Source of the DNA: a virus
Taxonomy: Duplodnaviria; Caudoviricetes
Strand: one strand, 5' to 3'
Length of the DNA: 64,000 nucleotides
Virus record (IMG/VR): IMGVR_UViG_2767802067_000002
Coordinates: 32,001 to 96,000 of that record
Shown here: positions 2,939-56,105 of the stretch, in pieces
Numbering within the stretch: the stretch's first letter is position 1
How the letters are laid out: each line of letters opens with the position of its first letter
Made by a program: the position numbers and the translations under genes
The notes under the pieces: model-generated
What the model saw: only the letters and a program-made list of their open reading frames with translations
Told to the model about the DNA's origin: nothing
Database searches by the model: none

Positions 2939-4576
2939 TCAGGCGACGGGGCAGGACAGGGTCTTCTGCGCACCGGTCGAGCCGTCGGCGCAGACCGGCA
3001 CGGTGACGAGGCGGGTGTCGACCGACCTGTCCACGAGAGCGACGCACTCCTCGCTGAAGGTCGCCGTGTAGTCGTTCTTGCTGAACTTCACGGAGTCGTG
3101 GACCACGCCGAGGTTGATCTCCGCGCCACGTCCAGCCTGGAGAGAACCAGCGGGGTAGATCAGGAAGCTGACCTCGTCGGGCCACGCGGTGGCCGGCGTC
3201 GCGCCGCCGATCTCACCCGGCTGCGCCGGGGTCAGACCGCGCGCCCACTGGATCCGGGTGCCGAGCGGCGTGTACAGGTCCTGGACCATGCCGATGTCGA
3301 CCTGGTCCAGCCCGACGCCGTTCCGGCGCGCCAGGTCGGCCAACATCATGTTCCTGCTCCACCACGGGAACACGACCTCGAGCGCGGTTCCTTCGCAGAG
3401 CGAGTGACGCTCGATCATGTCCGCCGCGGTGAGGGCGACGGCGCCGTGCAGCGCCGAGACGGTGCCCATCGTCGCGGTCAGTGCGACCGAGGTCGCGGTG
3501 GCCACGGCCTGCTCGAACAGCTCCTGCTTGATGCGGATCTCGTGCGCGACCATCTGGTTGCGCAGGTACCAGGCGACGAGCTCCGGGAAGTGCCGCTGCG
3601 TCAGGATGCCCGCTTCCAGGCAGATCCCGACCGCCTCGCAGCGGACTTCCAGCGGCTGCGGGCACGGGATCTTGAAGCACGGCTTCGTGGCGCCCGCGAT
3701 GTCGTCGGCCTCGGTGTGCACCCAGGTCATCGCGGCGACGTCCAGCGTCGGCGGCTTGTAGTAGCGGATACCGCCCCTGGCGAGCTGCGTCTCCGGCAGG
3801 TCCCACAGCATGTCGGGGCAGGCCACGTCGGCGATGTCGTAGACCATCTCCGACACCGCGCACCAGCCGCCGGACGCGACCAAGTCCCCCTTCGGCAGGC
3901 GCCGCTGGTTGGAGGCGGTGAGGGTCACCGAGGTGCCCTCCGGGATGGAGCCGGCGTCGGTGACGATCAGCTCGTCCGGGTACGGGTGCGAGTAGCTGGC
4001 GACCTGGCTGCTGCCGCCGTTGATGGTCTTGAGGGCGTTCGCGCGGGCGATGACACCTGCGGTCAGGTCGTCGAAGTTGATGGTGCTGCCCGGCTTGTGG
4101 CCGGGGACGTCGACCGACGCGGTGATGCGGGTCGCCGGCTTGTTCTCCTCGGGGAGGACGCGGCGCTGGCCCGCGCGGACCGCACTGAGGTTCAGACGGG
4201 GCCTCGCCGGCGGGGTCGCGGCCGCGGTCGCCGCCGCTTCCGGCTCCGGCTCGGGCTCGTCGGACGCGGTCGCCTCGGTTTCCGTCTCGGCCTCCGGCTC
4301 GACCTGGGCGGCGGGCTCCTCAGCCTGGCCGCGCACCTGGGCGGCGAGAGCATCGATCTCGGCGGCGGCCTGCTGCGCCGCGTCCAGCCGGGACGCCTGC
4401 TCGGCGCGGATGTCGTTGACGGCCGCCGCGATGGCGCGCATCTCGGCCAGGTCGTCCTGGCTGATGCTGGTGCTGTTGGAGCGGGAGTCGAACGCGGCGA
4501 CCGCCGCGTCCAGGAGTGCGCCGAGCTCGTCGTCGGTCAGCGCGCTGTAGCTCTCGGGGAGCTCGAACGGGTCCAT
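2939..4576 (-). CDS. Major capsid protein with N-terminal scaffold-like coiled coil
   Basis: Start MDPFELP after GGAG; coiled-coil N-terminus; LVASGGWCAVSE and RGGIRY motifs typical of actinophage major capsid proteins; synteny. Confidence 0.8.
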   Translation of the reverse strand: MDPFELPESYSALTDDELGALLDAAVAAFDSRSNSTSISQDDLAEMRAIAAAVNDIRAEQASRLDAAQQAAAEIDALAAQVRGQAEEPAAQVEPEAETETEATASDEPEPEPEAAATAAATPPARPRLNLSAVRAGQRRVLPEENKPATRITASVDVPGHKPGSTINFDDLTAGVIARANALKTINGGSSQVASYSHPYPDELIVTDAGSIPEGTSVTLTASNQRRLPKGDLVASGGWCAVSEMVYDIADVACPDMLWDLPETQLARGGIRYYKPPTLDVAAMTWVHTEADDIAGATKPCFKIPCPQPLEVRCEAVGICLEAGILTQRHFPELVAWYLRNQMVAHEIRIKQELFEQAVATATSVALTATMGTVSALHGAVALTAADMIERHSLCEGTALEVVFPWWSRNMMLADLARRNGVGLDQVDIGMVQDLYTPLGTRIQWARGLTPAQPGEIGGATPATAWPDEVSFLIYPAGSLQAGRGAEINLGVVHDSVKFSKNDYTATFSEECVALVDRSVDTRLVTVPVCADGSTGAQKTLSCPVA

Positions 4577-12525: not shown

Positions 12526-14109
12526 TCACCGGCCGATCCGCCGCCCGTACAGGCCCGCCGCCGGGCTCTGCTGCCCGCTGCCGGTCGGCTGCGGGGCGGT
12601 CGGCAGCGGCGCGTGCACGATCGCGCCCTTGTTGGCCTCCGGGATCAGGCCGTACGCCAGGACGCACGAGGCGTCGATCCGGCCCGGCGAGTCCGGGTCG
12701 GTCGGCATCCACGTCGCCCACTCCTTCTCCAGGTCGGTGAACACCCCACGCAGCCGCACCCGGTCCTGCACCATCAGCTGCGCCACCGGCTCCGCCCTGA
12801 GCAGCTTCCCCTGCTTCGCGCGGACGGGCAGGATCGCCGGCATCAGCTCGGTCTCCGGGATCTCCCCGGCCCGCTGCAACGCCTCCCACGAGTTCGAGAT
12901 CGCCAGGACGGCCATGTCCCGGCCGAAGTTCCACTCCACGTAGATGATCGAGGCGTTCTGCTCGTGGGCGAGCTTGCACGCCGCGGTGGACCACGCGGCC
13001 GACGACATCGGCGCCGACACGTCGTGCGTGATCCACACCCGCTTGTCGTCGCCGAGGAACCCGGCGACGACGCCCGCGGTGTCCCGGCCGCCGCCGGACG
13101 GGTCGATCGACACCGCGATCTTCTGCGGCGTCACCCCGCTGCCGTGGTCGCGGATCAGCCGCAGCAGCTCCCACGACACCAGCGCGCCTTCGGCCGGCTG
13201 CGGGTCGCCCTGCGCGAGCGAGTGCCAGTCCCGGACGATCGACGTCTTCTTCATGTCCGCCCACCAGGCCAGCAGCGCCCGCCGGTCCCTGGTGCGGATC
13301 TTCGGGTGCGGCAGCGGGTCGCCGTCGCGGCGCCCGAGCGGGTCCGGCCCGAACTTGCTCGGATTCGCGATCGCGGGCAGGTGGATGACCTTCCACCGGC
13401 CGCCGTCCTCCAGCCGCCCCTCGTCCTCCAGGCGCCGCCCAGCCCAGTCGTCCGGGTGCCAGCGGGTCTGGATCCCGACGACCGCGTTCCGGTCCGGCTG
13501 CAAGCGCTTGAGGGCCGTGGACGAGTACCAGTCGTGCAGGGCGGTGCGGGACGCCTCGCTCTCCGCGTCGGCGCGATCCTTGTGCGGGTCGTCGATGATC
13601 AGCAGGTTCGCGCTGTGGCCGGTCAGGCCCTTGCCGACCGACACCGAGCGGACGCCGCCGCCGAGAGTCACCGACCAGTCCTGCATCGCCCCGGACCCGG
13701 CCTTCATCCGCAGGTCGTACTCGTCGCCGTACTCCTCGACGTACGACCTGATCGTCTTGCCGCGCTTGAGCGCCAGGTCGTCGCCGTACGACGTCACCAC
13801 GACCGCGTCCGCCGGGTACAGGCACAGCCACCAGAACGGGAACCACTCACCGACCGACGTCGATTTGCCGACCTGGGGCGGCGTGAAGATCATCAACCTG
13901 TCGTATTCACCCCGGGTGACGCCGGCCAGCGCATCGCCGATCAGCCGCAGGTGCGGGCGCATCCGGAACGTCGGGTCGAGGCCGCGTGCCAGGGTGACCG
14001 GGTCGCGCAGCAGGTCCCGGCTCATCGCCCTCTTCGCGGCCTCCAGCCGCTGGAGCACCGTGGCGTCGTCCAGATGCTCCAGCCCGTCGGCGGCGTCCCG
14101 TGTCCTCAC
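12526..14109 (-). CDS. terL: Terminase large subunit
   Basis: Walker A PPQVGKST, Walker B LLIIDDP, coupling motif IQTRWH, nuclease acidic motifs SIDPS and SPGRIDA. Confidence 0.92.
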   Translation of the reverse strand: MRTRDAADGLEHLDDATVLQRLEAAKRAMSRDLLRDPVTLARGLDPTFRMRPHLRLIGDALAGVTRGEYDRLMIFTPPQVGKSTSVGEWFPFWWLCLYPADAVVVTSYGDDLALKRGKTIRSYVEEYGDEYDLRMKAGSGAMQDWSVTLGGGVRSVSVGKGLTGHSANLLIIDDPHKDRADAESEASRTALHDWYSSTALKRLQPDRNAVVGIQTRWHPDDWAGRRLEDEGRLEDGGRWKVIHLPAIANPSKFGPDPLGRRDGDPLPHPKIRTRDRRALLAWWADMKKTSIVRDWHSLAQGDPQPAEGALVSWELLRLIRDHGSGVTPQKIAVSIDPSGGGRDTAGVVAGFLGDDKRVWITHDVSAPMSSAAWSTAACKLAHEQNASIIYVEWNFGRDMAVLAISNSWEALQRAGEIPETELMPAILPVRAKQGKLLRAEPVAQLMVQDRVRLRGVFTDLEKEWATWMPTDPDSPGRIDASCVLAYGLIPEANKGAIVHAPLPTAPQPTGSGQQSPAAGLYGRRIGR

Positions 14110-14795
14110 TCGGCGCCCTGGTCCTCGTCGTCGCCGTCCGGCCCGGCCGGGTACGTCTCCTCGTCGTCCTCGTCGGCCTGGCCGCCACCGACGGCCGCGA
14201 CCTGGTCGTCCTCGTCATCGGCGCCGTCGATCGCGGCGAGCCGGCGGTTCACGGACTCGGCGAGATCCGAGAGCTGCTTGCGGCGCTGCTCCTCCGGCAT
14301 CTGCGCGAACGCCGCGAGCTGCGCCGCCAGCGGGTTCCCGCCCTGGCCGCCGGTGATGGCGATGGTCTCCGTCGGATCGCCGAACAGCACCCGGCGCTGG
14401 CGCATGGTCACGTCCAGCAGGCGGATGAAGTCCCCGGGGCTCAGGTCGTCGGCCCGCAGGGTGCCCAGGCGCTGCGCCAGCTTGCCGATCGCTGCGCCCA
14501 AGATCTTCGCGTCCGACTCGGCGGCCTTGCGCCGCTCCTCCAGCCACGTCGCCTCGTAGAGCCGGTCCAGGTGCCGGTCCCACGCCTCGACGCGCTCGCG
14601 CCAGCGGAACTCCGCCGCGACGTTCCTCACGTGCCCGGGCGCGAGTGTCAGCTTCTCCGCAGCCTTCACCAGGGTGCGGGCGCGGCCGAGGTCCCGGTAC
14701 GTGACGAATTGCCCGTGTTTGCGGGCTGACTCTCCGGGCTGACGCTCCCAGGGGTCCAGGGTGGCGGTCAGGGTGATCGGCTGTGCGGTGCTCAT
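14106..14795 (-). CDS. terS: Terminase small subunit
   Basis: PWERQPGES...F..YRDLG..R...WRERVEAWD signature; overlaps the TerL start. Confidence 0.8.
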   Translation of the reverse strand: MSTAQPITLTATLDPWERQPGESARKHGQFVTYRDLGRARTLVKAAEKLTLAPGHVRNVAAEFRWRERVEAWDRHLDRLYEATWLEERRKAAESDAKILGAAIGKLAQRLGTLRADDLSPGDFIRLLDVTMRQRRVLFGDPTETIAITGGQGGNPLAAQLAAFAQMPEEQRRKQLSDLAESVNRRLAAIDGADDEDDQVAAVGGGQADEDDEETYPAGPDGDDEDQGAE

Positions 14796-15754
14796 GGCTG
14801 GGCGTCACCCTGCGGGGCGGGGGCGTCGGGCTGGGCGGGCACCGTGCTGGGCTCCCAGTTGCTGCCGGACAGGTACTCGCCGGCCAGGCGCTCCAGCAGC
14901 AGGTAGCCCTTGCCCTGCGGGATCTCGCCGCGTCCCTCCGCTGCGGCGATCGCCTTGTTCAGCGTGACGGCGGCGGTGGCGGGGAGGTGGCGGGCTCCGA
15001 TGACGGTCTCCAGGCCGACCTGCCCGTTGTGCAGCGCTTCCCAGGCGGGGGTCTGGTAGCCGGCCTGCAAGTCGGTGAGGTGCTGCTCGACGATCGCGAG
15101 GATGGCGTGGAGCGCGGTCGCGACGTTGCCCACCTTGTGGGCGGCGTGCGTGGAGGCGAGCGTGTCGAGGGTCTGGGCGTAGTCGGCCCGGGCGGCGAGC
15201 CAGGAGACGTTCTGGCTGAGGCGGGCGAGGTCGAAGGCTTCGCGGGCCGCTTCGAGCTCGGACGGCAGGAACACGAGGCTCACGGTGGCGAAGTCGAGGT
15301 TCGCCTCCGACAGGCCCTCGGGGGAGACTTCGGCGAGGAGCTGGAGCACGTCGTCGTCCAGGCCGGAGTAGGCCCGCCAGTCGACGTCCTCGATGGCGTC
15401 GTACAGCTGCTTGAGGGTCGCCGGGTCGTCCTTGCCGGTGATGGCGTTGTGGGAGAGCTGGCGGGCGATCAGCTCGTCCTTGTGCTGCGGGTCGGAGATC
15501 AGCATGACGTCGATCTCTTCGAGGCCGGCGGCCACCGAGGCGTCGCAGCGGTGGTTGCCGGACAGGACGAGCTCGCGGCCTTCCTCGTACTCGCCGGCGC
15601 CGCCGTAGATCAGGGGGACGCTGGTCAGGCAGCCGTCGGCCTTGACGTTGGCCACCAGCCGGTCGAACTCCTCCTTCGTCTGGTAGTGCGCGTTCACCTG
15701 GAGGCGGGTGAGGAGCCGCGGGTCGCGGCGGACCAGGCGGGGCTTGATCGTCAT
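14792..15754 (-). CDS. ParB/Srx-like N-terminal domain protein of the terminase-linked DNA modification module
   Basis: True start MTIKPR overlaps the upstream stop (ATGA); NAHYQ...LVANVKADG...VLSGNHRC...QLSHNAITG. Confidence 0.8.
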   Translation of the reverse strand: MTIKPRLVRRDPRLLTRLQVNAHYQTKEEFDRLVANVKADGCLTSVPLIYGGAGEYEEGRELVLSGNHRCDASVAAGLEEIDVMLISDPQHKDELIARQLSHNAITGKDDPATLKQLYDAIEDVDWRAYSGLDDDVLQLLAEVSPEGLSEANLDFATVSLVFLPSELEAAREAFDLARLSQNVSWLAARADYAQTLDTLASTHAAHKVGNVATALHAILAIVEQHLTDLQAGYQTPAWEALHNGQVGLETVIGARHLPATAAVTLNKAIAAAEGRGEIPQGKGYLLLERLAGEYLSGSNWEPSTVPAQPDAPAPQGDAQP

Positions 15755-17109
15755 CGGTTGAGGTCCTTTCCGTGCTTGCGCTTCCACAGGTCGAGGGCGC
15801 CGTCGAGGTCGTAGGTGCCGAGGGGGCCGCCGTACTGCAGCTGGTAGGCGTGGATGCCGTCGCCGGGGTCCTTCGCGCTGGCCTGGGTGCGCTTCTGGAG
15901 CTTCACGCCGGGGATGCCGCGGCCGTACTTCGCCGAGTTGGGCCGGTCGGTGAACGCCGTGGTGGACCAGGCGTCGATCCGCTTGGACAGGGACCGCTGA
16001 ACGAGGAGCTGCGCCTCCTTTGTGGAGGCGGCCATGACGATCAGCTTGGCCAGGCGCCGGTACCGCGACCACGACACCGGGAAGTCGGACATCAGGTAGG
16101 CGCAGTTCGGGTCGAACTTCGGCGGCAGGTAGGCGAACGCGCCGATCAGCTTGCCGTCGACGGAGACGCCGCAGGCGAGCAGCGGGCTGCCGGGCAGGAT
16201 GCTCTTGGACATGAACTGCGAGCGGATCGCGGCGAACTGGCCGCCGGTCAGGACGTGCAGGGCCATCCGCTCGCCCAGTTCCTCGTCCTGGCCGATCTTC
16301 GGCATCTTGATCGTCTCGATGGGCTGGTGGGGCCGGACGATCCGGCGGGGTCCGGAGGCGGCGTACACGTAGATCGGCAGGCCGCGGTTGGCGGTCTGGA
16401 CGACGCCGGCGAGCTGCGGGCGCAGCTCCGGGCGTTCGATGTGCAGGCCGAGGACCCAGTGCGGCCGGTCCTGGACCTGCTCGATGATCCGCTCCTTGCC
16501 TTCCTCGGTGAGGTCGCCGAACGTCGGCTCGGGCCAGGCGAACGCGGCGTCGATCGGGGCGAACTGGGCCTGGTAGTCGCCCGAGTAGAACGGCGGGAAC
16601 ATCACCACCGGCGCCTCGGGCGGCACCTCCTGGTCGAGGTAGTCGCGGACGTCGCCGGCGAAGAACCCGCCGAGCTTCGTCTGCAAGCCCTTGAGCTTGG
16701 TGGCGGTCTTCTCGTGCATCCGGGGCCACTGGTCCTGCGTCGCGGCCATCATCCGCCGGTAGTAGGCGCCCTCCTTGCCGACGAACTGGAGGAAGCGGGT
16801 GCCGAGCATCAGCGTCGCCATCAGGTCGGTGCGGTCATCCAGGTACGGGTGGAGCCAGCCCAGCTCGTCCTCGTACTCGGGGCGCAGCGTGAACTCCAGC
16901 GGCTGCCCGGCGAGGAACCAGCCGAGGGAGCACGAGTACGCCTGGATGTCGTTGCCGTGGACGCGGCGGGCGTCGCCGAAGCGGGAGTGGAGCACCCGCT
17001 CGATCGTGAAGTTGCCGGAGCAGCCGACGTAGATGTCCTCCCCGGGCCACTCGCCGGCGTGCTCGTAGATGATCGAGCGGAGCGGGGCGGGGATCGAGCC
17101 ACGGAACAC
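15751..17109 (-). CDS. Amino-methyltransferase-like domain fused to Mom-like GNAT domain (putative DNA base modifier)
   Basis: AGGAGG then GTG at 17109; motif I-like YVGCSGNF; motif IV-like MFPPFY; C-terminal GVSVDGKLIGAFAY...YLMSDF...RLAKLI...TTAFTD..SAKY, a GNAT/Mom-like pattern. Confidence 0.65.
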   Translation of the reverse strand: MFRGSIPAPLRSIIYEHAGEWPGEDIYVGCSGNFTIERVLHSRFGDARRVHGNDIQAYSCSLGWFLAGQPLEFTLRPEYEDELGWLHPYLDDRTDLMATLMLGTRFLQFVGKEGAYYRRMMAATQDQWPRMHEKTATKLKGLQTKLGGFFAGDVRDYLDQEVPPEAPVVMFPPFYSGDYQAQFAPIDAAFAWPEPTFGDLTEEGKERIIEQVQDRPHWVLGLHIERPELRPQLAGVVQTANRGLPIYVYAASGPRRIVRPHQPIETIKMPKIGQDEELGERMALHVLTGGQFAAIRSQFMSKSILPGSPLLACGVSVDGKLIGAFAYLPPKFDPNCAYLMSDFPVSWSRYRRLAKLIVMAASTKEAQLLVQRSLSKRIDAWSTTAFTDRPNSAKYGRGIPGVKLQKRTQASAKDPGDGIHAYQLQYGGPLGTYDLDGALDLWKRKHGKDLNR

Positions 17110-17180
17110 GTCGGCCTCCTGGTGCGCCTGGGGAAGGGCGCCGGCCAGCGGCTGACCTGCACCGGCCCGCGCGGCCAGGA

Positions 17181-17201
17181 ATGATGACACATCAGACGTG
17201 G
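17181..17201 (-). promoter_or_regulatory. Repeated promoter/operator motif GATGTGTCATCAT, copy upstream of the modifier gene
   Basis: 13-bp exact direct repeat with 17429-17441; contains the palindrome TGATG-N3-CATCA. Confidence 0.55.
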
Positions 17202-17278
17202 GCGGACGTTACTGGACAGTCCTGGACGGTTCCGGACGATCGTGGACGCCCGGCGCCGGTCGCCGCGGCCCGGAACGG

Positions 17279-17310
17279 GCGAAGCCCCCGCCGCGGGGCG
17301 GGGGCTTCGC
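17279..17310 (-). terminator. Hairpin terminator/processing stem after tRNA-Gly
   Basis: 14-bp perfect stem GCGAAGCCCCCGCC/GGCGGGGGCTTCGC directly 3' of the tRNA. Confidence 0.7.
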
Positions 17311-17315
17311 TGGGG

Positions 17316-17387
17316 AGCGCCAGCCAGGATTTGAACCTGGGCCTCTCAACCTGGAAGGCGAGCGTGCTCACACTGCACTACCGGCGC
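17316..17387 (-). tRNA. tRNA-Gly(UCC), atypical
   Basis: GCGCCGG/CTGGCGC acceptor stem, U73, GTGC/GCAC D-stem, CTTCCAG anticodon loop, CCAGG-TTCAAAT-CCTGG T arm. The D-loop lacks GG and the anticodon stem is mismatched or bulged. Confidence 0.8.
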
Positions 17388-17428
17388 ACGCCCGGCTGCG
17401 ACGCTGCACGCTCAGCCGGACAGGACAG

Positions 17429-17452
17429 ATGATGACACATCGGACGGTGGGG
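17429..17452 (-). promoter_or_regulatory. Repeated promoter/operator motif GATGTGTCATCAT, copy upstream of tRNA-Gly
   Basis: Identical 13-mer to 17181-17193, about 40 nt upstream of the tRNA 5' end. Confidence 0.55.
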
Positions 17453-17694: not shown

Positions 17695-19710
17695 TCAACC
17701 CTCCCAGCAGGCGACCACCATCCCGGCCGCCGGGGCGGGTGCGGTCGCGGCCTCGGCGATGATCTCGGCCATGCTCACGTCCAGGCGGAAGCGGTGGCCG
17801 GTCATCTCCTCCGCGAGGGCATAGCGGGCGGCCAGCGCGGGCTGCAGGTGGGCGGCACGCACGAGCGCGGCCCGGGAGGCCAACACGCAGTTGCCCGTCA
17901 TCAGGTCCTCGGCCAGCGCGAACGCCTGGGCGCCGGGGACGACCGCGCAGTACACCTCCTCGACCCGATCGGTCGGGGTCACCTCGTCGACCACCCACAG
18001 CCTGTCGTGCGCTTCGCGGACGGTGGCCTTCTCGGCAATCCGGTCGCGGTGGGCGTCGATCTTCCAGAACCAGTCCGGCAGGTCGGTGGCGTCCAGCGTG
18101 ATCGTGTAGAGCGGCGTGGCCGCCTTGCCCGTCCCGACCCGCATCGACGTCCTCACCGGCCCGTACCCGACGCCGCACACCGCGGCGACATCCCGGATCA
18201 CCTGCATCGACTCCTTGCTCGCCGAGGCCATCCGGGCGGAGCCGTGCTCGGTCACGGTTCCGTCGGCCGCGAAGTAGCCAGCGAGCCAGGACAGCAGGAA
18301 CGACCGGGACTCCCGCAAGTCCGGGCCTTCCTTCCAGAGCCGGGGCAGGCCGTAGATCCTCAGTGCGTCCTTGCCGTTCAGCCTGGTCGGCTTGGGCCGG
18401 TGCGCGGCGAAGTAGGGCAGGATCGCACCGTCCTTCTCAGCCAGGTGGATGTCGAGGCATGCGGGGCGGTCGCCCGACCCCTTCGTCCCGTCGCCGTACA
18501 CGAAGCCCTGCGCGACCGCGAACGGTACTTCCCCGCCCTGGGCCAGCGACTGCGCCTTCACGCTGCGCAGCCTGGTGCCCAGGGTCAGCTCGCTGGTGAC
18601 CAGCTCGACCGTCACGTCCTCGTAGCCGTTGTGGCGGCCGTCCTTCTTCGGCGGCCGCAGCTTCCGGTCCCAGGTCAGCCACCGGTGCTCGGCGGTGGCG
18701 TGGACGATCCGGGTCTGCCGCCCGCGGTGCATCGTGATGCGCCACAGCCGCTGGACGCCGAACGCTCGGACTTCCACCTCCTTGAACGATCCGGCCCCGC
18801 TCAGCCCGTACGGAGTGACCTTCGGGATCAGCAGCTCATGTCGCCCGCCGGCGAGCTCCGCGATCGGGCGCAGCCCGGCCCGGGTCACGACCTCGGTCTC
18901 ACCGGCGAGGCAGAACACGCAGCTCAGGCGCGGCATCCCAGCCTTGTAGGCGGGGTGCGGGCGGGTGCCCGCGACGAAGATCGCGGCCCAGACGTCCGCC
19001 GTTGACCAGCCGTGGATAGGCAGCCAGGTGTCCACCCACCGCAGGGTGTTCGACGCACCGTGCTGCATCCGGTCCTTGGCCGGGATCTTCTTCGGTTTGA
19101 GCCCGGCGGCCTCGGCGGCCTTGGCGGCCTCCTTCGCGGCCTCGGTGGCCTTCCGGCGCCGCTGGCACTCCGCGCACGGGCAGGTCTTCGAGCCGTCGTG
19201 GCAGAAGGGCACGAGCTTGCGCCGGGCGGCGCTCTCGTCCGCGCGCAGGCCCATCACGTTGAGGATCCGGACCACGCCGACGTGGCCGGCGGCCCGGGCC
19301 TCGTTCACCAGCATGGTGATCAGCTTCCGGATCGGCCCGCGCTTAAAATCCGATGTACACCACCTGTTGTCGGCCGAAGGCCACATGCCGCGTTCTTCGA
19401 CGCGCTCGATCAGGTTGGAGCCGACCCGCTGCACCGTCTCGAACCGCAGGCCGTAGTGCCGGGCGTGCTCCTCGGCGAGCTCCCGCACCCCGGGCCACTC
19501 GACGATCCCGAGGTCCGCGTGCACCACCACGACCCGGTCCGCGACGCCGGCCGCCGTGGCGTGCAGCATCAGCTCCGCGAGCATCGCCTGCGAGTCCTTG
19601 CCCCCACTGACGTTCGCGATGATCCACCGGTACGAGGCGAGGTCCGGCACCTCGGGGCGCAGCTCGACCAGGTCGAACGCGGCCTGCCCGGGGATGACTC
19701 GTCGCGCCAT
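17695..19710 (-). CDS. PAPS reductase-family (PP-loop) protein containing an intein
   Basis: GAAGGAGG RBS; start MARRVIPG; SGGKDS PP-loop; RWCTSDFKRGP; MGLRADESAAR; HPAY..GMPRLSCVF/CVLA. Confidence 0.85.
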   Translation of the reverse strand: MARRVIPGQAAFDLVELRPEVPDLASYRWIIANVSGGKDSQAMLAELMLHATAAGVADRVVVVHADLGIVEWPGVRELAEEHARHYGLRFETVQRVGSNLIERVEERGMWPSADNRWCTSDFKRGPIRKLITMLVNEARAAGHVGVVRILNVMGLRADESAARRKLVPFCHDGSKTCPCAECQRRRKATEAAKEAAKAAEAAGLKPKKIPAKDRMQHGASNTLRWVDTWLPIHGWSTADVWAAIFVAGTRPHPAYKAGMPRLSCVFCLAGETEVVTRAGLRPIAELAGGRHELLIPKVTPYGLSGAGSFKEVEVRAFGVQRLWRITMHRGRQTRIVHATAEHRWLTWDRKLRPPKKDGRHNGYEDVTVELVTSELTLGTRLRSVKAQSLAQGGEVPFAVAQGFVYGDGTKGSGDRPACLDIHLAEKDGAILPYFAAHRPKPTRLNGKDALRIYGLPRLWKEGPDLRESRSFLLSWLAGYFAADGTVTEHGSARMASASKESMQVIRDVAAVCGVGYGPVRTSMRVGTGKAATPLYTITLDATDLPDWFWKIDAHRDRIAEKATVREAHDRLWVVDEVTPTDRVEEVYCAVVPGAQAFALAEDLMTGNCVLASRAALVRAAHLQPALAARYALAEEMTGHRFRLDVSMAEIIAEAATAPAPAAGMVVACWEG
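17890..18912 (-). mobile_element. Intein with LAGLIDADG homing endonuclease (341 aa)
   Basis: N-terminus CLAGETEV; block B ATAEH; GFVYGDG and LAGYFAADG; C-terminus VYCAVVPG...TGN|C. Splicing restores the extein motif RLSCVFCVLA. Confidence 0.9.
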
Positions 19711-22488: not shown

Positions 22489-24333
22489 TCAGGCCGCGAG
22501 GGCCAGCCAGGGGCGCCCCTGGCCCGGCGCGTACCGGCTGATCTCCTCGCCGGTGATGCACTCGGTCAGGGCGCACATCAAGATCTCGGCGACGTTGGGC
22601 GTCACCGCGTTGCCGTACTGCTTGACCCGGGCCCTCTTCGAGCCGAGCACGATGTAGTCGTCCGCGAAGCTCATCGCGCGGCCGATCTCGTGGGGCTGGA
22701 GCATCCGGAACAGGACCCGCGAGAGGTCCCACTCGCCGTCCGGGGTGATGAACGCGAACCTGTCGCGGGTCGACTGGGTGCCCATCGGCTCGCTCACCGG
22801 CTTGGCCCGGCCGTTGCCGTAGTACGGGACGAGGAGGCCGTCCCCGGGGGTCACCAGCGACTGGTGGCCCGCCGCGGTCAGGGTCCGCAGCGGCTCGCTG
22901 ACCGGGGTGCACATCTGACCGGGATCGCCGTTCGGGGTGTTGTTCCGCATCACGAACGCGGAGGTCACCAAGCCGTGGTGGTTGCCGCCGGCCGACACGG
23001 TGTGCAGCGGCTCCCGGATGTGCCTGGCCTTCTCCAGGTCGCCGCCGCCGCGCATCGGGATGATGAACGGCGCGTAGGCGAGGGCCGTCTCCAGCCTGGT
23101 CGTCTGGGTGCGCAGCGGGTCGTCCAGGCGCATCGCCTTCTTCCCGTCGCGGCCCTCGCAGGGAATCAGCAGCGGCGGGATCACCAGGCCGTCGCTCTCG
23201 CGGGTGGTGCGGGTCGCCATCGGGTCGCAGACGCTCGCGGCGCCGTTCCGCCAGGTGCCGCCGGTCGGGACGAGCAGCGGGCCCGGCTGGCCGCCGGTCA
23301 GATCGTCGCCGAACAGCGCACCCTGCTGGTCCCCGAGCGGGCCGCCGGGGGTCGGCCAGAACTTCTCGACCCCGGCCCGGATGCGGGCCATCGTGTTCGG
23401 GGCCAGCCCTTCCGGGCACTCCTCGGACTTCGGCCGGTCACCGATGGGCGTTCCTTCGATCCCCCAGTCGATCGCCGCGGCGGCCGGGAGGACGTCGGGC
23501 TCGACGACCTGGCCGCACGAGGACTTCGGGCACCGGTAGGTGTAGCTGGCGCGGTACCGGCCCATGTCCTGGCCTGGCTTGTTGAACACCTGCATCGAGT
23601 CGACCCACTCGGCGCAGTTGACGCAGAACGCCTTGGGGCGGAGCCACTTGTCCCAGTCGGGGTGGCGGCCAAGGGACTTGTGCCAGTACGCGACGTACAG
23701 CCGGTCGCGGCTCTGCGGGGCACGGTGCACGCTGCGCGGGTCGGCGTGCATCGAGTTCAGCGCGATGACCCGCACGAAGTAGCCGAGCTTGCGGATCTCG
23801 TTCAGCCACTGGTCCCAGTCGACCCAGCTCCTGACGTCCGTCACGTTCTCGACCACTCCGGCCTTGACCAGGCCGCCGCGCTCGATCACCCCGCGCAGGT
23901 AGAGCGGCACCTCCTCCATCAGGGCCCGCGACTCTTCCTCCTCCTTCGTGGGGCCGACCGGCTGCCCGTTCTCGTCGAGGAGCGCGGCCTCCTGCTCGGC
24001 GTACAGGCTCAGCAGGTCACCCTGCATCGCCTTGTCGAAGTCCCGCTTCTTGCCCTTGGCGGATGACCAATTGGTGCACTCTGGGGAGGCCCAGAACAGG
24101 TCCGTAATCTCCCACGCCCAGACCGGGGCCTTGCGGATGTCGCCCCGGTAGTGGGCGACGCCGGGGAAGTTGGCCTCGTGGCTGTCGATGGCCTGCTTCC
24201 AGTGGTTCGCCGCGCGGGCCACCCGCAGGCCGGGCACCGCGTGCATGCCCTGGGACGAGCCGCCTGCCCCGCTGAACCAGTCTTGGACCGTGAGCTCGTT
24301 CTGGTCGGCCCACTTCGTCCGCATCGCTGCCAT
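22489..24333 (-). CDS. DNA (cytosine-5) methyltransferase
   Basis: Motifs DWFSGAGG (I), ASPECTNWS (IV), VVENV (VI), PQSRDRLY (VIII), RMLQPHE (IX), KQYGNAV (X); no cognate REase nearby. Confidence 0.92.
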   Translation of the reverse strand: MAAMRTKWADQNELTVQDWFSGAGGSSQGMHAVPGLRVARAANHWKQAIDSHEANFPGVAHYRGDIRKAPVWAWEITDLFWASPECTNWSSAKGKKRDFDKAMQGDLLSLYAEQEAALLDENGQPVGPTKEEEESRALMEEVPLYLRGVIERGGLVKAGVVENVTDVRSWVDWDQWLNEIRKLGYFVRVIALNSMHADPRSVHRAPQSRDRLYVAYWHKSLGRHPDWDKWLRPKAFCVNCAEWVDSMQVFNKPGQDMGRYRASYTYRCPKSSCGQVVEPDVLPAAAAIDWGIEGTPIGDRPKSEECPEGLAPNTMARIRAGVEKFWPTPGGPLGDQQGALFGDDLTGGQPGPLLVPTGGTWRNGAASVCDPMATRTTRESDGLVIPPLLIPCEGRDGKKAMRLDDPLRTQTTRLETALAYAPFIIPMRGGGDLEKARHIREPLHTVSAGGNHHGLVTSAFVMRNNTPNGDPGQMCTPVSEPLRTLTAAGHQSLVTPGDGLLVPYYGNGRAKPVSEPMGTQSTRDRFAFITPDGEWDLSRVLFRMLQPHEIGRAMSFADDYIVLGSKRARVKQYGNAVTPNVAEILMCALTECITGEEISRYAPGQGRPWLALAA

Positions 24334-24425
24334 CGTTTCGCTCTCTTCCCGCTGGGGTCGGTGGTGGGTTGGCCGGCCGGGCGGGATTCCCGCCCCGCCC
24401 GGTCGGCGGGGGTGGTGAGGGTAGG

Positions 24426-54713: not shown

Positions 54714-55250
54714 ATGAGCAATGACCGGGACGCCCTGCTGGCGCAGATCAAGGACAAGGCCGTCGTGCACGGCAAGGTCACCCTCTCCTCCGGCCTGGAG
54801 GCTGATTACTACGTGGACCTGCGCCGGATCACGCTGGACGCGGAGGCGGCGCCGCTGGTCGGCAAGGTGATGTTGGACGCGGCGGCGGACCTGGAGTTCG
54901 ACGCGGTGGGCGGGCTGACTCTGGGCGCGGACCCGGTGGCGGCGGCGATGCTGCACGCGGCGGCGGCGCGCGGTCGGAAGCTGGACGCGTTCGTGGTGCG
55001 GAAGGCGGGCAAGGCGCACGGGTTGCAGCGCCGGATCGAGGGCCCGGACGTGAAGGGCCGCCGGGTGCTGGCGGTGGAGGACACCTCGACGACCGGCGGT
55101 TCGGTGCTGACCGCGGTGGAGGCGCTGCGCGAGGCGGGCGCCGAGGTGGTGGGTGTCGCGGTGATCGTGGAGCGCGGCGCGGCCCCGGCGATCGCCGAGA
55201 CGGGCCTGCCGTACGTGACCGCGTACACCTTGGACGACCTGGGGCTGTGA
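54714..55250 (+). CDS. pyrE: Orotate phosphoribosyltransferase
   Basis: TLSSG..ADYYVDLR, VRK..K.HG, PRPP motif LAVEDTSTTGGS. Confidence 0.92.
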   Translation: MSNDRDALLAQIKDKAVVHGKVTLSSGLEADYYVDLRRITLDAEAAPLVGKVMLDAAADLEFDAVGGLTLGADPVAAAMLHAAAARGRKLDAFVVRKAGKAHGLQRRIEGPDVKGRRVLAVEDTSTTGGSVLTAVEALREAGAEVVGVAVIVERGAAPAIAETGLPYVTAYTLDDLGL

Positions 55251-56004: not shown

Positions 56005-56088
56005 GGGCGAGTGGCGGAACCGGCAGACGCAGCGACCTTAAAAGTCGCGGCCGCTCGCGGCGTGTGGGTTCGACTCCCACCTCGCTCA
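56005..56088 (+). tRNA. tRNA-Leu(UAA), bldA-type
   Basis: GGGCGAG/CTCGCTC acceptor, A73, GCGAC-CTTAAAA-GTCGC anticodon arm, long variable arm, GTGGG-TTCGACT-CCCAC T arm. Confidence 0.92.
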
Positions 56089-56105
56089 CGGCTCCCGGAA
56101 ACGGT

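What the first reader, a model, noticed from the sequence alone, without database searches (positions are those of the whole stretch)
14792..17452. Candidate dedicated non-proteinogenic tRNA-Gly feeding a terminase-coupled Mom-like DNA hypermodification enzyme
Seen: an isolated tRNA-Gly(UCC) sits directly upstream of an MTase-like/GNAT fusion gene, followed by ParB-like, TerS and TerL, all overlapping by ATGA/GTGA. The tRNA keeps the bacterial GlyRS identity elements (G1:C72, C2:G71, G3:C70, U73, C35, C36). It lacks the D-loop G18G19 (loop AGUGUGA), has a mismatched or bulged anticodon stem (CUCGC/GUUGAG) and an A51:U63 T-stem pair. The tRNA and the enzyme are each preceded by the same 13-mer. 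Established: phage Mu Mom is a GNAT-fold enzyme and, as I recall, has been reported to transfer glycine from Gly-tRNA-Gly to adenine N6 in DNA. Staphylococcal non-proteinogenic tRNA-Gly species used by FemXAB lack G18G19 and carry weak EF-Tu pairs such as A51:U63. Inference: this element encodes its own aminoacylatable but ribosome/EF-Tu-evading glycine carrier to supply packaging-linked DNA glycylation against restriction.
Basis: partly seen in the sequence, partly recalled or inferred. Interest (0 to 1): 0.92.

Follow-up and report, generated by a model that had tools for sequence, protein, structure and literature searches.

The report
Phage DNA-modifying kit with private tRNA-Gly
A prophage carries, just before its DNA-packaging genes, a glycine tRNA that looks built to be charged but not used by ribosomes; it travels with a methylase-like/acyltransferase-like fusion enzyme across many unrelated phages, which suggests that these phages make their own glycine carrier to chemically decorate their DNA, although no modification has been measured.

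Summary
The locus is a prophage cassette: tRNA-Gly-like RNA, Dam-like/GNAT fusion (PF22555+PF22559), ParB-like, TerS, TerL.

The linkage is conserved. In 159 non-redundant homologous loci (32-87% identity), a glycine-identity tRNA lies within 400 nt upstream in 125 and anywhere in the locus in 137. These RNAs keep the GlyRS determinants, while position 34 drifts (U/C/A/G), ribosome-facing bases decay, and the EF-Tu-tight G51:C63 pair is avoided (154/160). Predicted EF-Tu binding here is about 2 kcal/mol weaker than for host tRNA-Gly.

Not found in the literature or in earlier scan notes: true Mom-family (PF25680) genes of other phages also carry such tRNA-like elements (35/50 clusters). That ties this RNA class to an enzyme family in which Mu Mom has proven Gly-tRNA chemistry.

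Caveats: the GNAT is not a Mom member (no Pfam hit, catalytic residues differ). The methylase motif IV is FPPF. Terminase coupling and loss of G18G19 are not universal, and tRNA-less homologues exist. DNA as the acceptor is inferred.

This scan has noted the same kit before on other DNA. I found no paper describing it.

The parts
17429..17441 (-). 13-mer; probable extended -10 promoter element (TGn-CATCAT) of the tRNA transcript
   Evidence: homologues have TG-n-TAnnAT-like boxes at about the same distance upstream of their tRNAs (read by eye); the consensus sigma-70 scan found no site; promoter role inferred
17388..17422 (-). 5' leader hairpin before the tRNA; a similar hairpin with a GAGCAGCGGCG-type loop recurs in Streptomyces homologues
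   Evidence: fold -21 kcal/mol, z -2.7; homologous leaders
17316..17387 (-). tRNA-Gly-like RNA (anticodon UCC at 17353-17355): GlyRS identity set intact, no G18G19, one extra U in the anticodon stem, T-stem C49:G65/C50:G64/A51:U63, CCA not encoded
17278..17310 (-). strong GC hairpin right after the tRNA (terminator- or processing-type, no U-run)
   Evidence: -33.4 kcal/mol, z -5.6; similar hairpins after homologous tRNAs
17181..17193 (-). second copy of the 13-mer, about 70 nt before the enzyme start; probable second promoter
   Evidence: both copies persist with 1-2 mismatches in the 93%-identical relative L420; no copy between tRNA and gene in 85 more distant loci
16294..17109 (-). N-terminal Dam-like SAM-binding domain (PF22555): motif I GCSGN, D54 and D153 conserved; motif IV is [F/Y]PP[F/T] instead of DPPY
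   Evidence: (EcoDam 2ore Z 11.2, T4Dam Z 11.2, DpnM Z 11.0); inteins in homologues insert right after FPPFY
15751..16272 (-). C-terminal GNAT domain (PF22559) of the 452-aa fusion protein 15751-17109; lacks the CoA pyrophosphate-binding R-x-x-G-x-G loop
   Evidence: pLDDT 95; Mom 8bv8 Z 10.9, rmsd 3.1, 141 aligned, tied with generic GNATs
14792..15754 (-). ParB-like protein without a ParA partner, directly downstream in 149/156 homologous loci; probable accessory or activator
   Evidence: precedent PMC13229309
14106..14795 (-). terminase small subunit
   Evidence: phrog_6299 E 1e-20
12526..14109 (-). terminase large subunit
   Evidence: phrog_38 E 2e-76; Terminase_6N/6C

Best explanation
A prophage late-gene module for post-replicative modification of phage DNA. 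The tRNA-like RNA is processed and given CCA by host enzymes, then charged with glycine by host GlyRS. Its T-stem binds EF-Tu weakly and its D-loop and anticodon arm are unconstrained, so it forms a glycyl-tRNA pool that largely escapes translation. The GNAT domain of the fusion enzyme uses this pool as acyl donor, as Mu Mom uses host Gly-tRNA, and puts the glycyl group on a DNA base, most likely adenine N6. The Dam-like domain binds DNA and flips the base, and possibly uses SAM to methylate the adduct. The ParB-like protein is a partner or activator. The modified DNA is packaged and resists restriction. The private tRNA boosts supply but is not obligatory. Shown here: gene anatomy, folds, linkage, and the conservation pattern of the RNA. 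Inferred: expression, charging, EF-Tu escape, glycyl transfer, DNA and adenine as acceptor, anti-restriction.
For: Linkage in 125/159 non-redundant loci within 400 nt (137 anywhere), down to 30-40% protein identity (38/62); only 8 non-Gly-type hits among about 217 model matches. tRNA and protein divergence track each other (Mantel r 0.70, permutation maximum 0.12), and the cloverleaf is kept by compensatory changes (97% paired, 17/21 pairs co-vary). C35/C36 are present in 145/145 seven-base loops, while position 34 is U87/C28/A28/G2, U33 is kept in only 107, position 37 is a pyrimidine in 43, and 12 loops have 6 or 8 bases. The wobble base differs (UCC vs ACC) between this locus and its 93%-identical relative. 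148/160 RNAs have at least one defect in core positions, against 0/10 host tRNA-Gly. G51:C63 is absent in 154/160. EF-Tu ddG from PMC3239215 Table 2: window +0.9, family mean +0.60, host mean -1.03 kcal/mol; the staphylococcal non-proteogenic T-stem gives +0.6 by the same table. GNAT fold without a CoA loop (108). Mom is the nearest named family by profile (hhalign 84.5%, E 7e-6, N-terminal half) and by ESM features (0.89, lead only). Bona fide Mom genes (10/10 sampled over the PF25680 cut-off) have adjacent Gly-identity tRNA-like elements in 35/50 clusters of viral loci and in 7/7 loci of a related clade. Mu Mom transfers glycine from Gly-tRNA-Gly to adenine N6 (PMC13219725). The N-terminal domain has a DNA-adenine-methylase fold. 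The host genome has its own tRNA-Gly set, UCC included, and GGA is only 18/325 Gly codons in seven phage genes.
Against: No biochemical or expression data. The enzyme is not a Mom member: no PF25680 hit, single-sequence hhalign 2%, and a structural Z for Mom tied with unrelated acetyltransferases. Mom's essential R111 and D149 appear, by manual motif register, to be D342 and F386, and the S124-equivalent is Ala in this copy (Ser in 72% of the family); S124A kills Mom. Mu Mom works with any host tRNA-Gly isoacceptor (PMC13219725), so a private tRNA is not needed for the chemistry. A 42%-identity subclade in three genomes of the same genus has no such tRNA nearby, and 22/159 loci showed none under the strict test. 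The fold points to DNA as acceptor but does not prove it. The counts come from related phages and are not independent events.
Confidence: 0.68

Rival explanations
1. The tRNA is a dedicated glycyl donor for the GNAT, but the acceptor is not DNA adenine. It could be another base, a base modified earlier, or a protein or small molecule (for example ParB, terminase or a capsid protein).
For: tRNA-dependent GNATs also acylate peptides, lipids and proteins (PMC13219725, Fig. 5). The catalytic residues differ from Mom's. The Dam-like domain lacks the adenine-binding D/N of motif IV.
Against: The GNAT is fused to a DNA-adenine-methylase fold. It sits in a ParB/terminase locus of the kind where phage DNA modifiers cluster (PMC4738411, PMC13229309). 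The nearest named family is Mom.
Confidence: 0.15
2. The RNA is a decoy or substrate rather than a donor: it titrates or regulates the GNAT (TacT-like acylation of Gly-tRNA-Gly) or a host tRNA-Gly nuclease, in a toxin-antitoxin or counter-defence role.
For: TacT recognises U73 and G71 of Gly-tRNA-Gly (PMC9976931), the very positions that are conserved here. A decoy would also tolerate drift in the decoding parts.
Against: The GNAT lacks the acyl-CoA pyrophosphate loop. The same RNA class flanks true Mom genes, where Gly-tRNA is the donor. C35/C36, a GlyRS element, is invariant. Homologues without the RNA exist, which fits poorly with an antitoxin.
Confidence: 0.08
3. An ordinary phage tRNA-Gly that supports translation (codon supply or rescue from host anticodon nucleases) and merely hitch-hikes at a late promoter next to an unrelated modification enzyme.
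For: Many phages carry tRNAs. Some family members look near-canonical (12/160 have no core defect). Taptic's gene is annotated simply as tRNA-Gly(TCC) (PMC5356062).
Against: Free drift of position 34 including ACC, 6- and 8-base anticodon loops, loss of U33, U8 and G18G19, and near-total avoidance of the tight EF-Tu T-stem. The host has all Gly isoacceptors. Linkage persists across distant phages, including where it is the only tRNA in the genome.
Confidence: 0.05
4. The tRNA is an attachment-site remnant or a pseudogene with no function.
For: This copy has a bulged anticodon stem and no encoded CCA.
Against: It lies inside the prophage, is unlike any host tRNA, occurs in cultured phages without an integrase, and is held under structural selection. 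The bulge is shared with the nearest relative.
Confidence: 0.03

Closest known systems
Phage Mu Mom (Pfam PF25680, PDB 8bv8; PMC13219725)
   Same: GNAT fold without a CoA-binding glycine loop; remote N-terminal profile similarity; late phage gene; proposed Gly-tRNA-Gly donor and DNA acceptor. Many PF25680 members outside the Mu group also have an adjacent Gly-type tRNA-like element.
   Different: Distinct Pfam family (PF22559); different invariant residues (R296, D342, K355, TTAF, S392-K394-Y395-R397); fused to a Dam-like SAM domain; paired with ParB; brings its own tRNA, whereas Mu Mom uses host tRNAs and Mu-like loci have none.
Staphylococcal non-proteogenic tRNA-Gly (NP1-3) for FmhB/FemA/FemB (PMC7826273, PMC3239215)
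   Same: GlyRS identity set kept; A51:U63 and weak predicted EF-Tu binding (+0.9 here vs +0.6 kcal/mol); serves a GNAT-fold aminoacyl transferase.
   Different: Phage-borne and co-inherited with its enzyme; free wobble base and variable loop length; the proposed target is DNA, not peptidoglycan; no sign of common descent was tested.
Pfam PF22555 DAM-like-phage1 + PF22559 GNAT-phage-like ('putative antirestriction adenine methyltransferase' in database names); ParB-terminase modification loci (PMC4738411)
   Same: The protein is a plain member (342 and 186 bits), and the ParB-terminase context is as described for other phage DNA modifiers.
   Different: No function has been shown, and the linked tRNA is not mentioned in any paper I found. 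Motif IV argues against a plain m6A methylase.
ParB-dependent phage thymine dioxygenases (PMC13229309)
   Same: An orphan ParB-like gene is tightly linked to a phage DNA-modifying enzyme.
   Different: Unrelated catalytic domain; the activator role of ParB here is untested.

Membership tests
Mom (PF25680) | Match to the Mom profile | tested here: not met
   No PF25680 hit at E<=10 for the GNAT domain, while Mu Mom scores 253 bits
Mom (PF25680) | GNAT fold | tested here: met
   AF2 pLDDT 95; 8bv8 Z 10.9, rmsd 3.1, 141 aligned, tied with other GNATs
Mom (PF25680) | Catalytic H58/Y59, R111, S124, D149, Y159 | tested here: inconclusive
   By manual motif register the equivalents are Q298/F299(Y), D342, A354 (S in 72%), F386, Y395; no residue-level superposition was available; R111 and D149 look not conserved
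Mom (PF25680) | Transfers glycine from Gly-tRNA to dA N6 giving 6-NcmdA | not testable with these tools
   Needs LC-MS and an in vitro assay
PF22555/PF22559 DAM-like-GNAT fusion | Both profiles above cut-off | tested here: met
   342 and 186 bits against cut-off 27
Dam-type N6-adenine methyltransferase | Rossmann MTase fold with SAM-binding motifs I-III | tested here: met
   EcoDam/T4Dam/DpnM Z 11.0-11.2; GCSGN, D54, D153 conserved in 87-99% apart from G29 (72%)
Dam-type N6-adenine methyltransferase | Catalytic motif IV [D/N/S]PP[Y/F] | tested here: not met
   First position is F (60%) or Y (31%) in 133 family members
Bacterial tRNA-Gly (GlyRS substrate) | U73, G1:C72, C2:G71, G3:C70, C35, C36 (PMC9976931) | tested here: met
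   All present; invariant in the 42-sequence alignment
Elongator tRNA-Gly | G18G19, regular 5-bp/7-nt anticodon arm, tight T-stem G49:U65/C50:G64/G51:C63 | tested here: not met
   No G18G19, extra U in the stem, T-stem CG/CG/AU; 0/157 family RNAs have the tight triple
Non-proteogenic tRNA-Gly (functional class) | Weak EF-Tu T-stem including A51:U63 | tested here: met
   Predicted ddG +0.9 vs about -1.0 for hosts
Non-proteogenic tRNA-Gly (functional class) | Charged in vivo, excluded from ribosomes, preferred by its transferase | not testable with these tools
   No RNA run holds the locus; needs biochemistry
Acetyl-CoA-dependent GNAT (RimI/TacT type) | Motif A R/Q-x-x-G-x-G/A pyrophosphate loop | tested here: not met
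   Residues 345-356 have no conserved glycine; the consensus is Y-x-R-L-S-K-L

The most novel reading that the evidence does not exclude
Phages and other mobile elements have repeatedly evolved private, ribosome-excluded tRNA-Gly molecules as cofactors for DNA hypermodification, shared between the Mom family proper and the distinct Dam-like/GNAT fusion family. The fusion enzyme makes a base not yet described, such as a glycyl-adenine adduct further methylated by the SAM domain with its rebuilt FPPF pocket.
Probability: 0.35. Interest if true: 0.92.

Novelty: new variant of a known kind. Interest (0 to 1): 0.8.

Why it matters
If correct, this gives a function to an uncharacterised phage enzyme family (over 500 clusters at 50% identity with E<=1e-30). 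It also gives a non-translational answer, for one class, to why phages carry lone odd tRNAs. It extends dedicated non-proteogenic tRNA-Gly from staphylococcal cell-wall synthesis to viral DNA chemistry, and predicts a possibly new modified base. It is directly testable because cultured phages on laboratory hosts carry the kit (Mycobacterium cluster W; Gordonia phages Clawz and Soos, where the tRNA is unannotated). The same RNA class next to true Mom genes was not noted in the Mom paper.

Tried and rejected
Sequence search against PDB gave only spurious CaMKII matches. Foldseek did not list Mom among the shown rows; VIA-align did, tied with generic GNATs. The sigma-70 promoter and terminator scan found nothing. 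The exact 13-mer is not conserved beyond the nearest relatives, so I rejected it as a family-wide regulatory site. I first took the anticodon-stem insertion as private to this copy. It is shared with L420 and absent in strain X2, so it is a small-clade trait and not an assembly error. No RNA run holder was listed (no evidence either way). Iyer et al. 2013 NAR could not be retrieved, so I cannot exclude that it discusses this locus type. Literature searches found no description of the tRNA linkage. Relaxed ARAGORN (-ps80) on GC-rich DNA gave only noise. An att-site or pseudogene origin and codon-usage compensation were considered and rejected (see rivals).
Full report
1. What is there. The window lies inside a large prophage of a high-GC actinobacterium (G000:C11; the closest protein relative is from Kitasatospora), with major capsid and terminase genes downstream. 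On the minus strand the order is: 13-mer, leader hairpin, tRNA (17316-17387, Rfam 49.9 bits), strong hairpin, second 13-mer, a 452-aa protein (15751-17109) made of PF22555 DAM-like-phage1 and PF22559 GNAT-phage-like, a ParB-like gene, TerS and TerL, joined by ATGA/ATGA/GTGA overlaps. In addition, CCA is not encoded; many host tRNAs of this genus lack it too. The host has ordinary tRNA-Gly UCC, CCC and GCC genes.

2. The tRNA travels with the enzyme. I collected 242 homologous loci from viral, genome, metagenome and cultured-phage collections and built a covariance model from 42 linked tRNAs. Of 159 non-redundant loci with enough upstream DNA, 125 have a glycine-identity tRNA within 400 nt upstream and 137 have one somewhere in the locus. 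The counts by protein identity are 38/62 at 30-40%, 26/29 at 40-50%, 14/16 at 50-60%, 14/14 at 60-75% and 33/38 above 75%. At the level of 60%-identity clusters the figures are 25/40 and 32/40. Other tRNA types are rare in these loci. RNA divergence follows protein divergence (Mantel r 0.70), and the cloverleaf is held by compensatory changes. In Mycobacterium phage Taptic it is the only tRNA of the genome and lies directly before the enzyme (PMC5356062). Gordonia phages Soos and Clawz carry unannotated copies at the same place. The link is not obligatory: a 42%-identity subclade in three genomes of the same genus has no such RNA nearby. Relatives are not independent samples, so these counts show co-inheritance, not 125 separate events.

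3. What selection keeps and what it lets go. In the 42 RNAs picked by ARAGORN call and proximity, the invariant columns are G1, C2, G3, C70, G71, C72, U73, C35, C36 and the G53:C61 pair. Apart from the last pair, this is exactly the bacterial GlyRS identity set (PMC9976931). C35/C36 hold in all 145 seven-base loops, but position 34 is U 87, C 28, A 28, G 2. U33 is kept in only 107, position 37 is a pyrimidine in 43, and 12 loops have 6 or 8 bases. The nearest relative (93% protein identity) has ACC where this copy has UCC, with the same bulged U. A34 in bacterial tRNA-Gly is very unusual (own knowledge). 148/160 RNAs carry at least one defect in core positions, against 0/10 distinct host tRNA-Gly from related genomes. 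Loss of G18G19 is typical of the near clade (38/39) but not universal (99/160). The consistent family trait is the T-stem: G51:C63 is missing in 154/160 and G49:U65 in 157/160. With the additive EF-Tu values of PMC3239215, the window RNA scores +0.9 kcal/mol, the family +0.60 and the hosts -1.03. The staphylococcal non-proteogenic T-stem (PMC7826273) gives +0.6. This is the pattern expected of an RNA that must be glycylated but not delivered to the ribosome. It is a prediction, not a measurement.

4. The enzyme. AlphaFold gives two confident domains. The N-terminal one matches EcoDam, T4Dam and DpnM (Z 11.0-11.2) and keeps the SAM-binding motifs, but motif IV reads [F/Y]PP[F/T] in place of DPPY. 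Plain adenine methylation is therefore doubtful. Inteins insert right after this motif in several homologues, which suggests the site still matters. The C-terminal domain is a GNAT. Mu Mom is among the top structural matches (Z 10.9, rmsd 3.1, 141 residues) but is tied with generic acetyltransferases. It does not hit Pfam Mom. Deep profiles align over the N-terminal half (84.5%, E 7e-6), and Mom is the next named family in the ESM atlas (0.89, a lead). Like Mom, it lacks the glycine loop that binds CoA. By manual register, Mom's R111, S124, D149 and Y159 correspond to D342, A354 (Ser in 72% of the family), F386 and Y395. So it may work like Mom, but it is not a Mom. ParB follows directly in 149/156 loci. 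A detectable terminase follows within the fetched flank in at least 82/130, and cluster W phages keep the cassette away from the head genes. The core unit is therefore tRNA + enzyme + ParB, and packaging linkage is common but secondary. ParB-like activators of phage DNA-modifying enzymes are known (PMC13229309).

5. Independent support from true Mom genes. A control search for PF25680 turned up a Mom gene with ParB and a Gly-type tRNA-like element directly upstream (L169). Six relatives, in elements next to a Cas1 gene, all have it (7/7), while six Mu-like loci have none. Eighty viral loci found with core protein motifs only are bona fide Mom genes (10/10 sampled score 83-160 bits). They have an adjacent element, mostly at or overlapping the 3' end of the gene, in 35/50 clusters at 90% identity and 10/14 at 50%. 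These 41 distinct RNAs keep G1:C72, C2:G71, U73 and NCC, show the same wobble drift (U18/A13/C9/G1), mostly lack G18G19, and often carry a T-stem bulge. Mu Mom is proven to use Gly-tRNA-Gly as donor for DNA adenine (PMC13219725). Finding the same RNA class next to both families is the best indirect evidence that the RNA is a glycyl donor and that the PF22559 GNAT does related chemistry. The Mom paper does not mention linked tRNA genes.

6. The 13-mer. It occurs only twice in the genome, persists with 1-2 mismatches at both places in the nearest relative, and corresponds in position to TG-n-TAnnAT-like boxes in front of homologous tRNAs. It is most likely an extended -10 promoter element duplicated in this small clade (inference), not a family-wide operator.

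7. Verdict. The best explanation (0.68) is a DNA-modification module with a private, translation-shy glycyl-tRNA donor. Rivals are another acceptor (0.15), a decoy or toxin substrate (0.08), an ordinary translational tRNA (0.05) and a relic (0.03). The parts have precedents (Mom chemistry, staphylococcal non-proteogenic tRNAs, ParB-terminase modification loci). The combination is not in any paper I could find, but this scan has reported the same kit several times on other genomes. My reading was formed before I consulted those notes. No modification, charging or expression has been shown.

Noticed in passing
L169:2102-2179 (-), L334-L339 about 2955-3104 (+): A clade of true Mom genes in elements next to a Cas1 gene (some with a PolB-like gene, casposon-like) has ParB, then a Gly-type tRNA-like element that gene callers translate as the Mom N-terminus.
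   Followed up: partly
L340-L419: In many viral Mom loci the Gly-type tRNA-like element overlaps the last 60-170 nt of the Mom reading frame; several have C3:G70 or a bulged T-stem and are probably missed by standard tRNA finders.
   Followed up: partly
L309:1501-1575 and L326:1501-1573: Orphan members of the same atypical tRNA-Gly class in two chromosomes of the same genus with no Dam-like/GNAT gene within 1.5 kb: one between a dioxygenase/HD-domain gene and a NUDIX-like gene, the other (5-nt anticodon loop) beside a LanC-like and a cyclodeaminase-like gene. Gene labels were read from the translations.
   Followed up: partly
window 56005-56089 (+) and 54714-55250 (+): The prophage region carries a tRNA-Leu(UAA), the only UAA-anticodon tRNA that ARAGORN finds in this assembly (bldA-type specificity), next to a second pyrE copy 90% identical to the host gene on contig C4.
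   Followed up: partly
window 17695-19710 (-): PAPS-reductase-family gene with an apparent intein/LAGLIDADG insertion directly upstream of the tRNA; possibly a further DNA-modification gene.
   Followed up: no
window 22489-24400 (-): C5-cytosine methyltransferase-like gene (TIGR00675, E 3e-14, below cut-off) in the same prophage.
   Followed up: no
P0012, P0015, P0018, P0027, P0039: Inteins inserted immediately after the FPPFY motif of the Dam-like domain in several homologues.
   Followed up: partly
L047, L063, L209, L243, L244: Tandem pairs of the Gly-type tRNA upstream of the enzyme in some distant phage homologues.
   Followed up: no
L171 (G000:C1:218636-219406): The host genome has a separate PF25680-matching gene (74 bits) with no tRNA in 1.5 kb of flank.
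   Followed up: no
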